DNA of 64,000 nucleotides from the sequence record MN850566.1; one strand, given 5' to 3'. This DNA comes from Escherichia phage garuso. How positions within the stretch are numbered: position 1 is the stretch's first letter; each line of letters opens with the position of its first letter. The notes beneath the pieces were generated by a model that was not told where the DNA came from, ran no database searches, and saw nothing but the letters and a program-made list of their open reading frames with translations. A program made the position numbers and the translations under genes. Below are positions 60,720 through 60,995 of this stretch, one piece after another.

Positions 60720-60855
60720 ACAGAAGACCGTTTACAGCAAAACTTAAACAATCTATTTCTCCGGTAAAGAAAAGGCGAAGGTTCGATTCCTTCACTCGGC
60801 AGATGTCGAGTTGGTGTAATGGTAGCACTTAAGATGATAAACAACGGTCTGGTAA
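60720..60855 (+). repeat. conserved structured spacer element, unit d, with internal orphan T-arm-like hairpin
   Basis: 5' box ACAGAAGACCGTTTACAGCAA, 3' box ACGGTCTGGTA; interior has GAAGG-TTCGATT-CCTTC with no matching acceptor stem. Confidence 0.5.
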
Positions 60856-60995
60856 TTATCTTTGTAGATAAGTTATTAAGCTTACCTGTGAGTATGCGAC
60901 CACAAAGGGTGAAAGGGTAAATTCTAGATTTAAACCCAACAAGGCACATCGCTACAGACCTTAAGCAAGTCTGGGTAGCTTATCTACAAAGATAA
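60852..60995 (+). repeat. 20 bp near-perfect inverted repeat enclosing about 105 nt
   Basis: TAATTATCTTTGTAGATAAG (60852-60871) vs CTTATCTACAAAGATAATTT (60976-60995). Confidence 0.6.

What the first reader, a model, noticed from the sequence alone, without database searches (positions are those of the whole stretch)
60852..60995. 20 bp near-perfect inverted repeat enclosing a 105 nt segment in the tRNA cluster
TAATTATCTTTGTAGATAAG (60852-60871) and CTTATCTACAAAGATAATTT (60976-60995) are reverse complements (19 of 20). A stem this long is unusual for a simple terminator; it could be an RNase III processing site, the closing helix of a structured RNA, or terminal repeats of a small inserted element. 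The left arm abuts the 3' box of spacer unit d and the right arm abuts tRNA-Lys.
Basis: seen in the sequence. Interest (0 to 1): 0.45.

Follow-up and report, generated by a model that had tools for sequence, protein, structure and literature searches.

The report
Closing helix of phage Y-like RNA
The inverted repeat is the 23-base-pair closing stem of a conserved, unannotated ~145-nt structured RNA in a Felix O1-like phage tRNA operon, just downstream of a Ro60-like gene, which makes it a concrete candidate for the still-unidentified "Y RNA" partners of phage Ro proteins.

Summary
The repeat is real, with coordinates shifted by 1-3 nt. A perfect 18-mer pairs 60855-60872 with 60979-60996, and the full helix is 60854-60876 / 60975-60997. 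It is the best inverted repeat in the 64-kb window.

It is not a terminator and not an inserted element. It is the closing helix of a ~145-nt + strand RNA that sits directly 5' of tRNA-Lys(UUU) in Felixounavirus, Mooglevirus, Suspvirus and more distant relatives. Across 22 sequences 98% of cells pair. Nine pairs show compensatory double changes, against 0 of 500 shuffles reaching that value.

The most distant relatives keep a helix of at least 16-20 bp with a completely different sequence. They also keep an inner hairpin with a 9-nt loop, C(C/U)U(A/U)(A/U)GCAA.

The window is a Felix O1-like phage. The ORF 1.2 kb upstream (58262-59677) has a Ro60/TROVE fold. Arrays of small helix-plus-"ACAGCAA" RNAs, some tRNA-like, lie next to homologues of this gene in phages of at least nine host genera. 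The element's inner hairpin and 5' junction look like derived versions of that module.

Best reading, inferred and not shown: it is a Y-RNA-like partner of the phage Ro protein, released from the tRNA transcript by RNase P on its 3' side. RNase III cleavage of the stem is not excluded.

The parts
60854..60876 (+). 5' strand of the closing helix (left arm of the inverted repeat)
   Evidence: 23 pairs with 60975-60997; 7 pairs show compensatory double changes across lineages A, B and C
60975..60997 (+). 3' strand of the closing helix (right arm)
   Evidence: it ends 4 nt before tRNA-Lys +1
60873..60884 (+). UUAUUAAGCUUA directly after the helix 5' strand. Proposed degenerate counterpart of the (U)UACAGCAA signature of the spacer units.
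   Evidence: Read directly from the sequence. The paralogue at 62555-62644 has UUAUUACAGCUUG at the same place. The L163 orthologue has UUCAGCA. This is an inference, not a test.
60890..60897 (+). Conserved block GAGUAUGC in the 5' arm of the interior
   Evidence: GAGUAUGC in types A and C, GAGUGCC in type B, GAGUAGGC in L163, GGGUAUGC in L166
60915..60937 (+). Middle hairpin GGGUAAAUU-CUAG-AUUUAAACCC with apical CUAG
   Evidence: The pair closing the loop changes from U-A (types A, B) to A-U (type C) around an invariant CUAG.
60955..60973 (+). Inner 'mini-unit' hairpin CAGAC-CUUAAGCAA-GUCUG, directly 5' of the helix 3' strand
   Evidence: 5 pairs, 100% paired, 2 with compensatory double changes. 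The loop C(C/U)U(A/U)(A/U)GCAA is kept in all six lineages.
60998..61001 (+). UAAU single-stranded spacer between the helix and tRNA-Lys
   Evidence: A spacer of 0-5 nt is seen in most orthologues; L163 is longer.
61002..61077 (+). tRNA-Lys(UUU), the invariant 3' neighbour. RNase P cleavage at its 5' end would create the element's 3' end (inferred).
60718..60855 (+). Spacer unit d: helix + UACAGCAA + tRNA-like domain in YrlA order (V, T arm, closed acceptor stem, D arm). Its 3' box overlaps the left arm by 2 nt.
   Evidence: The acceptor-like stem GTCGAGT/ACTCGGC becomes GAAGGGT/ACCCTTC in phage Mordin.
60009..60710 (+). Spacer units a (60009-60086), b (60175-60245) and c (60631-60710): P0 helix, AGA/G internal loop, P1 AGACCnn(n), then UACAGCAA. 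tRNA-Met, Asn, Tyr and Asp lie between them.
   Evidence: (family D8)
58262..59677 (+). Ro60-like protein gene (DUF2828 + DUF7788; HEAT-repeat ring plus vWA domain)
59696..59816 (+). Two sigma-70-like promoters upstream of tRNA-Pro. No + strand terminator-like site was found between them and the next promoter-like site at 61746.

Best explanation
The inverted repeat is the closing helix of a ~145-nt structured non-coding RNA (about 60854-60997, + strand). It is transcribed as part of the polycistronic tRNA operon that starts right after a phage Ro60-like gene.

The RNA has four parts: a 23-bp closing stem, two variable arms, a middle hairpin with a CUAG apex, and a 3'-proximal hairpin with the loop CUUAAGCAA. 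That hairpin is a stripped-down copy of the 'helix + ACAGCAA' module found in the four preceding spacer units.

Shown here:
- The helix and the inner hairpin are under selection for pairing on the + strand.
- The element is orthologous across Ounavirinae-like phages and always lies directly 5' of tRNA-Lys(UUU).
- The upstream protein has a Ro60 fold.
- Helix + ACAGCAA RNAs cluster next to homologues of that protein in very diverse phages.

Inferred:
- The element is a derived, long-stem member of that RNA family.
- It is liberated by RNase P cleavage at tRNA-Lys on its 3' side. On its 5' side the endonuclease is unidentified, possibly RNase III or RNase E.
- It binds the Ro-like protein and acts as a Y-RNA-like cofactor, as gate, tether or decoy. 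This would fit the Ro-like protein's reported role in countering the Ppl defence system in the related phage Bas63.
For: Structure:
- 98.0% of 604 cells pair. Nine pairs carry changes on both sides. 0 of 500 shuffles reach this, and slid controls give 0-1.
- RNAalifold finds the same architecture in type A (11 sequences) and type B (8 sequences).
- The distant orthologues L162, L165, L163, L166 and L167 (Ro-like protein 54-63% identical) each fold with a long closing helix of unrelated sequence close to the tRNA-Lys 5' end. The helix is 20-25 bp in four of them; in L163 it is about 16 bp split by two internal loops. Each also has a 9-nt-loop hairpin just before the helix 3' strand.
- Strand: 592 of 604 cells pair on the + strand against 542 on the - strand. 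The + strand MFE is lower in all four distant orthologues tested.

Operon: promoters lie at 59696 and 59787, with no + strand terminator-like site before 61746.

Protein:
- Pfam gives DUF2828 + DUF7788.
- It is 34% identical, E 1e-72 to 1e-79, to mycobacteriophage 'Ro-like RNA binding protein'.
- A profile search of PDB sequences gives phage phiLo Ro60 as best hit.
- The AF2 model has pLDDT 88.6. Its top 12 Foldseek PDB hits are all full-length Ro60/TROVE, with TM up to 0.65.
- PMC11482910 reports the same structural similarity for Bas63 gp130 and speculates about Y RNAs among the tRNA genes.

RNA family:
- 26 strict helix + CAGCA units lie within 50 kb next to Ro-like genes. The background is 1.9 per 100 kb in 2.2 Mb of unrelated viral loci, with no clusters, and none occurs in the T4 tRNA region.
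- The units are seen in phages of Escherichia/Salmonella, Klebsiella, Aeromonas, Cronobacter, Mycobacterium, Campylobacter, Listeria, Staphylococcus and Sinorhizobium.
- Long-helix (20-21 bp) units exist in Aeromonas phage LAh_6 and Sinorhizobium phage phiM7.
- The L163 orthologue of the element begins with the same 5' box as the units in its genome, AATTTGCAAAGAATCT-TTCAGCA.
Against: - No expression, end-mapping or binding data are available for this RNA.
- The element lacks an intact ACAGCAA. It has UUAUUAAGCUUA after the helix and AAGCAA in the inner loop, so its membership of the unit family rests on resemblance, position and one intermediate (L163).
- In L163 the CAGCA can itself pair within the closing helix.
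- The canonical Ro-binding motifs GGUCCGA and GNCGAAN0-1G are absent from the element, and no Rfam family matches it even at E <= 10.
- The covariation comes from only about three well-aligned lineages plus three that could not be column-aligned.
- One sequenced relative (L141) lacks the element together with tRNA-Lys, so it is not essential.
- Binding of any of these RNAs by the DUF2828-type protein is untested.
Confidence: 0.55

Rival explanations
1. The long helix is primarily a double-strand-specific processing or stability element, such as an RNase III site. It would separate the upstream spacer RNAs from the tRNA-Lys precursor or protect the transcript. The interior would have no function of its own.
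For: A near-perfect helix of mostly 20-25 bp (about two helical turns, the minimal RNase III substrate by general knowledge) is kept in length while its sequence diverges completely. It lies a few nt from a tRNA 5' end. A second long hairpin (62555-62644, 26-nt arms) abuts tRNA-Leu in the same way. No tRNA separates units c and d from the element, so an extra endonuclease is needed there.
Against: The interior is conserved. The inner hairpin covaries (2 of 5 pairs) and has a conserved 9-nt loop. The GAGUAKGC block and the CUAG apex are retained across lineages. The middle arm of type B has 4 compensatory pairs. T7-type RNase III sites are short hairpins, not 100-nt multi-arm domains. This rival is compatible with the main explanation and does not exclude it.
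Confidence: 0.2
2. It is an autonomous structured non-coding RNA whose function is unrelated to the Ro-like protein, for example a decoy or regulator acting on host RNA metabolism or on tRNA-Lys(UUU) biology. It would sit in the operon only for co-expression.
For: It is strictly linked to tRNA-Lys(UUU) in every lineage, even where the neighbouring units differ: L162 lacks unit d, and in L163, L166 and L167 a tRNA-Ala intervenes. It lacks the intact ACAGCAA signature. T4 also encodes stable RNAs of unknown function (rnaC, rnaD) in its tRNA cluster, and no Ro-like gene is annotated in the 5-kb stretch examined.
Against: The inner hairpin uses the same P1 core and flanks (CAGACC...GGUCUG) as units a-d in the same genome. 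The L163 orthologue shares the unit 5' box. The element has only been found in genomes carrying the Ro-like gene, within 1.2-3.4 kb and on the same strand.
Confidence: 0.2
3. The repeats are terminal inverted repeats of a small mobile or inserted element (MITE-like) that landed between unit d and tRNA-Lys.
For: The arms are 20-23 nt, nearly perfect, and enclose about 100 nt. The cluster carries homing-endonuclease genes (HNH ORF at 61167-61661).
Against: The element is single copy and has no target-site duplication. It is present at the same site in three genera and in more distant relatives, with arms that coevolve by compensatory changes. G.U pairs work only in + strand RNA. No empty site exists: the only absence is a larger T-arm to T-arm deletion.
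Confidence: 0.01
4. It is a DNA-level signal, a cruciform or palindromic protein-binding or recombination site, rather than an RNA structure.
For: The repeat is palindromic at the DNA level, and the - strand also folds well (z = -4.69).
Against: 53 G.U cells would be A.C mismatches on the other strand, giving 592 paired cells on + against 542 on -. The 100-nt interior has its own covarying hairpins. The element lies inside a transcription unit among tRNAs.
Confidence: 0.03

Closest known systems
Bacterial and phage Y RNAs (YrlA/YrlB of Salmonella; Yrn1 of Deinococcus; Yrl1/Yrl2 of Thermus phage phiLo)
   Same: It is encoded within 4 kb of a Ro60-fold gene on the same strand. It is about 100-150 nt long, with its 5' and 3' parts paired in a long stem that closes a multi-arm domain. 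Several different RNAs lie side by side, one of them (the neighbouring unit d) with a tRNA-like domain in YrlA order V-T-AS-D (PMC4201824; PMC12135203).
   Different: The protein is the DUF2828 branch, not an annotated TROVE protein. The RNA has no GGUCCGA, GNCGAA or CGAA motif and no Rfam match. The candidate signature is instead a helix followed by ACAGCAA, degenerate in this element. The RNAs are embedded between tRNAs in a tRNA operon. Binding is untested.
T4 stable RNAs species 1 and 2 (rnaC, rnaD)
   Same: They are small stable RNAs of 119-139 nt, of unknown function, encoded inside a phage tRNA cluster and matured together with the tRNAs (annotation in NC_000866).
   Different: No sequence similarity was found, and no strict helix + CAGCA unit occurs in the T4 region. 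rnaC ends in a tRNA-like T arm, which this element lacks. No Ro-like gene is annotated in the 5-kb T4 stretch examined.
Phage T7-type RNase III processing hairpins
   Same: Both are long, nearly perfect double-stranded stems within a polycistronic phage transcript, next to the sequences they would separate.
   Different: T7 sites are hairpins of about 60 nt with an internal loop (own knowledge). This helix closes a conserved 100-nt three-arm domain.
Circularly permuted tRNA-like RNAs (permuted tmRNA; permuted tRNA genes)
   Same: In the wider family found here, one tRNA-like + ACAGCA module occurs in two permuted topologies. In unit d, L005 and L161 the acceptor stem is closed and P1 is open. 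In the L005 114-nt 'tRNA-Asp' and the L007 121- and 113-nt 'tRNAs' the acceptor stem is open and P1 is closed.
   Different: This concerns the neighbouring units, not the inverted-repeat element itself, which has no T or D arm.

Membership tests
Y RNA (Ro60-associated ncRNA) | Encoded close to a Ro60 orthologue, on the same strand (within about 4 kb in bacteria and phages) | tested here: met
   The Ro60-fold ORF is at 58262-59677 (+). The element starts 1.18 kb downstream on the same strand. The same arrangement is seen in all orthologous loci.
Y RNA (Ro60-associated ncRNA) | 5' and 3' regions pair into a long stem that closes a large internal loop or multi-arm module | tested here: met
   A 23-bp closing helix with 7 covarying pairs and a multi-arm interior. 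The true RNA ends are not mapped.
Y RNA (Ro60-associated ncRNA) | Conserved Ro60-binding motif in the stem (GGUCCGA in animals and Deinococcus; GNCGAAN0-1G near the 5' end in YrlA/YrlB) | tested here: not met
   A regex over 59678-61001 finds one match, at 60774, inside the T stem of unit d. None lies in the element.
Y RNA (Ro60-associated ncRNA) | Physically bound by the Ro60 protein | not testable with these tools
   Needs RIP, CLIP or EMSA.
YrlA subfamily | tRNA-like domain with T arm, closed acceptor-like stem and D arm | tested here: not met
   The element has no T- or D-arm sequence in 60854-60997. The adjacent unit d (60718-60855) does have them.
Any Rfam family | Covariance-model match | tested here: not met
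   cmscan of 59000-64000 at E <= 10 gives no hit overlapping 60854-60997. Related loci give only tRNA hits at gathering threshold.
Helix + ACAGCAA units next to DUF2828 Ro-like genes (family defined here) | A helix of at least 7 bp whose 5' strand is followed within 0-3 nt by (A/U/G)CAGCA, with the 3' strand followed by G | tested here: inconclusive
   The element has the helix but carries UUAUUAAGCUUA instead of the signature. The inner hairpin has CUU-AAGCAA between AGAC and GUCU. The paralogue at 62555-62644 has UUAUUACAGCUUG, and the L163 orthologue has UUCAGCA. The strict scan does not call the element.
Helix + ACAGCAA units next to DUF2828 Ro-like genes (family defined here) | Located in an array on the gene's strand, within about 2.6 kb of the Ro-like gene | tested here: met
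   It is the fifth structured spacer after units a-d and directly abuts unit d.
RNase III processing site | About 20 bp or more of mostly uninterrupted dsRNA | tested here: met
   23 bp here, and 20-25 bp in most orthologues.
RNase III processing site | Cleavage by RNase III in vivo or in vitro | not testable with these tools
   Needs an rnc mutant or the purified enzyme.
MITE / small element with terminal inverted repeats | Multiple copies, target-site duplication, and presence/absence polymorphism at the repeat ends | tested here: not met
   Single copy, no duplication flanking the arms, no empty site in 32 IMG/VR loci or about 250 GenBank phages, and one larger deletion only.
Intrinsic terminator | G+C-rich hairpin followed by a U tract | tested here: not met
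   The stem is A+U-rich with a 100-nt interior and is followed by UAAU plus a tRNA. It was not found by the terminator scan.

The most novel reading that the evidence does not exclude
The element and the neighbouring spacer units are the missing RNA partners of a large, uncharacterised branch of Ro60-like proteins (DUF2828). This branch is present in more than 700 sequenced phages of Gram-negative, Gram-positive and mycobacterial hosts. The RNAs would define a new class of non-canonical Y RNAs recognised through a helix + ACAGCAA signature. They are built in at least three formats: plain hairpins, circularly permuted tRNA mimics, and long-stem multi-arm RNAs like this one. They would be produced from tRNA operons by the tRNA-processing machinery and, together with the Ro-like protein, would counteract host anti-phage systems such as Ppl.
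Probability: 0.4. Interest if true: 0.8.

Novelty: new variant of a known kind. Interest (0 to 1): 0.62.

Why it matters
Ro60 and its Y RNAs are a long-studied ribonucleoprotein pair. They are an RNA quality-control system and a lupus/Sjogren autoantigen, and their bacterial and phage roles are only partly understood.

A 2024 preprint (PMC11482910) showed that the Ro60-like protein of a Felix O1-like phage counters the Ppl defence system. It guessed that some 'tRNA genes' downstream might be Y RNAs but did not identify them.

This analysis supplies concrete, testable RNA candidates with coordinates, structures and a conserved signature. It also shows that the same signature accompanies the protein in very diverse phages.

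If binding is confirmed, it would reveal how a divergent Ro protein recognises RNA without the canonical motif. It would show how phages make non-tRNA RNAs from tRNA operons. It would add a new RNA family to the annotation of hundreds of therapeutic-candidate phage genomes, where these regions are now left blank or mis-called as hypothetical ORFs or odd tRNAs.

Tried and rejected
- Rfam at E <= 10 on 59000-64000 gave nothing on the element. Rfam at gathering threshold on three related loci gave only tRNAs.
- A loose pattern scan of IMG/VR (TTCTAGATT...CAAAGAT) returned about 120 chance loci and no new homologue. Those loci were reused later as a background set.
- A specific pattern joining the inner loop to tRNA-Lys found only close relatives, a few chance hits, and one further copy of the L162 type.
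- A single-sequence PDB search with the protein found nothing.
- A MAFFT alignment of the 5' junctions of the element, its paralogue and the long-stem units was uninformative.
- I first assigned a P0 helix GCUAC/GUAGC to the inner hairpin. L162 does not keep it, and instead supports extension of the closing helix.
- I considered a pseudoknot GAGCUAA/UUAGCUU in type B. Type A lacks the 3' partner, so I did not pursue it.
- I considered loop-loop dimerisation through the palindromic UCUAGA / ACUAGU / AACGUU apex. A simpler reading is a covarying closing pair around a self-complementary tetraloop, so this remains only a remark.
- The terminator, mobile-element, DNA-cruciform and coding readings were rejected. 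The only ORFs over the region are 58 aa and 85 aa, unsupported and overlapping tRNA-like sequence.

Full report
OBSERVATION

That is 1 nt and 3 nt to the right of the stated coordinates. An 18-mer pairs perfectly (60855-60872 with 60979-60996). At up to 3 mismatches these are the only two copies in the window, against 0.13 expected by chance.

The repeat finder gives arms 60854-60875 / 60976-60997: 22 nt, 95% complementary, 100 nt apart. Among all inverted repeats of at least 16 nt within 300 nt in the 64-kb window, this one has the highest complementarity. The only comparable one also lies in the tRNA cluster. The + strand RNA folds at -48.3 kcal/mol, z = -5.05.

WHERE IT IS

The window is a Felix O1-like phage (Felixounavirus, Ounavirinae). 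The region is 95-100% identical to about 200 GenBank phages of Escherichia, Salmonella and Shigella.

The element lies in a tRNA cluster (18 tRNAs), between tRNA-Asp and tRNA-Lys(UUU). Two strong sigma-70-like promoters precede the cluster (59696 and 59787). No + strand terminator-like site was found before the next promoter-like site at 61746. The element is therefore inside a polycistronic tRNA transcript.

WHAT IT IS: A CONSERVED STRUCTURED RNA

Orthologues occupy the same position, directly 5' of tRNA-Lys(UUU), in several groups:
- Type A: the window and 10 variants.
- Type B: phage tootiki, Mooglevirus and Suspvirus. Type B has a strongly diverged interior.
- More distant metagenomic and isolate phages, whose upstream protein is only 54-63% identical: L162, L165, L163, L166 (Yersinia phage P778) and L167.

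On a 22-sequence alignment of lineages A, B and C, the 23-bp closing helix and a 5-bp inner hairpin are 98.0% paired. Nine pairs carry changes on both sides: 7 in the helix and 2 in the hairpin. None of 500 shuffles reaches this, and sliding the partners by 1-3 columns gives 0-1 such pairs.

L163, L166 and L167 could not be column-aligned, but each folds into the same architecture:
- A long closing helix of entirely different sequence, ending close to the tRNA-Lys 5' end. It is 20-25 bp in most; in L163 it is about 16 bp split by two internal loops, with a longer spacer.
- Immediately before the helix 3' strand, a hairpin whose 9-nt loop is C(C/U)U(A/U)(A/U)GCAA.

Other conserved features are a GAGUAKGC block and a middle hairpin with a CUAG apex. 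The pair closing that apex switches from U-A to A-U in lineage C. The middle arm of type B has four compensatory pairs of its own.

The pairing is strand-specific. 592 of 604 cells pair on the + strand against 542 if read from the - strand. The + strand MFE is lower in all four distant orthologues tested. This points to an RNA, not a DNA cruciform.

WHAT IT IS NOT

- Not a terminator. The stem is A+U-rich, has no U tract, and was not found by the scan.
- Not an inserted element. It is single copy, has no target-site duplication and no empty site. The one relative that lacks it (L141) has lost everything from the T arm of unit d to the T arm of tRNA-Lys, evidently by recombination between the two T arms.
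- No Rfam family matches, even at E <= 10.

CONTEXT THAT CHANGES THE INTERPRETATION

The ORF that ends 165 nt before the tRNA cluster (58262-59677, 471 aa) is a DUF2828/DUF7788 protein. The evidence that it is Ro60-like:
- It is 34% identical (E 1e-72 to 1e-79) to mycobacteriophage proteins annotated 'Ro-like RNA binding protein'. Homologues occur in 709 phage records.
- A profile of six homologues finds Thermus phage Ro60 as best PDB sequence hit.
- An AlphaFold2 model (pLDDT 88.6, pTM 0.89) has full-length Ro60/TROVE structures as its top 12 Foldseek hits in the PDB (E 3e-8 to 3e-6, TM up to 0.65). After these come only isolated vWA domains.
- A 2024 preprint reached the same structural conclusion for the orthologue Bas63 gp130. 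It showed that gp130 counters the Ppl defence system and speculated that some downstream 'tRNA genes' are Y RNAs, without identifying any (PMC11482910).

THE SPACER UNITS AND THE WIDER RNA FAMILY

The four 'spacer units' before the element are a (60009-60086), b (60175-60245), c (60631-60710) and d (60718-60855). They share one design:
- A 4-bp outer helix that covaries (UGAC/GUCA, UUAC/GUAA, GAGC/GCUC).
- An AGA/G internal loop.
- A helix AGACCnn(n)/(n)nnGGUCU.
- Directly after its 5' strand, UACAGCAA.

Unit d additionally encloses a tRNA-like domain in the order V region, T arm, closed acceptor-like stem, D arm. This is exactly the order described for YrlA Y RNAs (PMC4201824). Its acceptor-like stem is fully compensated in phage Mordin.

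The same helix + ACAGCAA module occurs in arrays of 2-8 right next to the Ro-like gene, on its strand, in these phages:
- Klebsiella phage FBKp34
- Aeromonas phage LAh_6
- Cronobacter phage S13
- Mycobacteriophage Kingsolomon
- Campylobacter phage CJLB-7
- Listeria phage LP-083-2
- Staphylococcus phage S-CoN_Ph16
- Sinorhizobium phage phiM7
- Unclassified IMG/VR contigs

With a strict definition there are 26 units in the 50 kb flanking 12 Ro-like genes. Elsewhere in those loci there are 7 in 289 kb. In 2.2 Mb of unrelated viral loci the density is 1.9 per 100 kb and units are never clustered. None occurs in the T4 tRNA region. Some members are tRNAs carrying the module as an insertion. These are a circular permutation of the unit d topology. 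None of this is in Rfam. I found no paper describing it.

HOW THE ELEMENT RELATES TO THAT FAMILY (INFERENCE)

- Its inner hairpin CAGAC-CUUAAGCAA-GUCUG (CAGACC-CUUUAGCAA-GGUCUG in type B) reuses the P1 core and flanks of units a-d. It places AAGCAA where the units have ACAGCAA, with no insert after it.
- The sequence after the closing helix 5' strand is UUAUUAAGCUUA. A shorter paralogue that abuts tRNA-Leu (62555-62644) has UUAUUACAGCUUG at that place.
- The L163 orthologue starts with the same 5' box as the bona fide units in its genome, followed by UUCAGCA.
- Units with 20-21-bp closing helices and an intact ACAGCA exist in LAh_6 and phiM7.

I therefore read the element as a derived, long-stem member of the family. 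The strict scan does not call it, so I rate its membership as inconclusive, not shown.

MECHANISM: WHAT IS SHOWN AND WHAT IS INFERRED

Shown:
- Selection for the + strand helix and the inner hairpin.
- Operon context.
- Ro60 fold of the neighbouring protein.
- Family-wide co-location of the RNA module and the protein.

Inferred:
- RNase P cleavage at tRNA-Lys +1 leaves the element with a 4-nt 3' tail.
- An endonuclease frees the 5' side, where the left arm overlaps the last 2 nt of unit d. The long helix makes RNase III a candidate.
- The Ro-like protein binds the module and uses the RNA as a Y-RNA-like gate, tether or decoy.

I put about 0.9 on 'closing helix of a conserved structured RNA' and about 0.5 on the Ro-partner reading, 0.55 overall. 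The main rivals are a pure processing helix and an ncRNA unrelated to Ro, each about 0.2. The processing helix is compatible with the main reading.

COMPARISON WITH KNOWN SYSTEMS

The element works like, and is placed like, a Y RNA. But it fails the one sequence criterion of that family, the GGUCCGA or GNCGAA motif, and it is not tRNA-like. So it should not be filed as YrlA or YrlB.

It resembles T4 rnaC and rnaD only in being a stable-RNA candidate inside a tRNA cluster. It resembles T7 RNase III sites only in helix length.

VERDICT

The finding is real. It is more interesting than a processing hairpin because of the company it keeps.

Novelty: a new variant of a known kind, namely Ro-associated structured ncRNA.

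Interest: 0.62. The score is driven by the testable link to phage Ro-like proteins and anti-defence, and tempered by the absence of any expression or binding data.

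Noticed in passing
window 60009-60086, 60175-60245, 60631-60710, 60718-60855: Four spacer units share a covarying outer helix, an AGA/G internal loop, the helix AGACCnn(n)/GGUCU and the signature UACAGCAA. The same helix + ACAGCAA module clusters next to Ro-like (DUF2828) genes in very diverse phages. It is about 27-fold enriched over a 2.2-Mb viral background and is absent from Rfam.
   Followed up: yes
window 60718-60855: Unit d encloses a tRNA-like domain with T arm GAAGGTTCGATTCCTTC, a closed acceptor-like stem ACTCGGC/GTCGAGT and D arm GTGTAATGGTAGCAC, in YrlA order. The acceptor-like stem is fully compensated in Citrobacter phage Mordin (L003). Rfam scores it only 22 bits as tRNA, below threshold.
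   Followed up: partly
window 58262-59677 (+): A 471-aa DUF2828/DUF7788 protein has a predicted full-length Ro60/TROVE fold (HEAT-repeat ring plus vWA domain). It is the orthologue of Bas63 gp130, which is reported to counter the Ppl defence system.
   Followed up: yes
window 62555-62644: A second long hairpin (26-nt arms, 38 nt between, z = -5.6) ends 1 nt before tRNA-Leu(UAG). It has UUAUUACAGCUUG after its 5' strand, and its 3' end AAAGAUUUAAU resembles that of the studied element. It is probably a shorter paralogue.
   Followed up: partly
window 61944-62057: A hairpin (ATCTTTAA...TTAAAGAT) followed by AATTAC abuts a tRNA at 61979-62057. Rfam calls this tRNA (31.7 bits) but ARAGORN does not. 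Relatives annotate tRNA-Arg(UCU) at this position.
   Followed up: no
L141 6450-6545 (IMGVR_UViG_2706796742_000001): A natural deletion variant. The T arm of unit d is fused to the T arm and 3' acceptor of tRNA-Lys. This removes the 3' half of unit d, the whole inverted-repeat element and most of tRNA-Lys(UUU).
   Followed up: yes
L005 7003-7116; L007 6896-7016 and 7026-7138: 'tRNAs' of 113-121 nt in Klebsiella phage FBKp34 and Cronobacter phage S13 carry a short hairpin plus UUUACAGCA or UAUUCAGCA, inserted after the D arm or in place of the anticodon loop. This is a circular permutation of the unit d topology.
   Followed up: partly
window 60924-60927; L162 about 6348-6351; L166 and L167 middle arm: The apex of the middle hairpin is a self-complementary tetranucleotide: CUAG, or ACGU in L166 and L167. 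With its closing pair it forms a palindromic hexamer (UCUAGA, ACUAGU, AACGUU). This could allow loop-loop dimerisation, or it could simply be a covarying closing pair.
   Followed up: partly
window 61741-61977: Weak, sub-threshold Rfam matches to permuted tmRNA (20.3 bits, E 0.38) and tmRNA (15.4 bits, E 0.003), just downstream of a strong promoter-like site (61746-61774, 11/12 match).
   Followed up: no
window 61167-61661 (+): A 164-aa ORF with a weak HNH/zinc-ribbon signature lies between tRNA-Met and tRNA-Ile. It is annotated as HNH endonuclease in relatives and is absent from many of them, so it looks like a mobile homing-endonuclease insertion in the tRNA operon.
   Followed up: no
window 60333-60401: The spacer between tRNA-Asn and tRNA-Tyr contains a T-arm-like GGTGCAAGTCC, apparently a degenerate tRNA remnant. 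Phage tootiki has only a 9-nt spacer here.
   Followed up: no
L225 5315-6458; L006 10070-10993; L227 1154-1717: RNA-repair genes lie within a few kb of the Ro-like gene in other phages: RtcB-like ligase in Listeria phage LP-083-2, RNA ligase 2 in Aeromonas phage LAh_6, and an Appr-1-p processing protein in Sinorhizobium phage phiM7.
   Followed up: no
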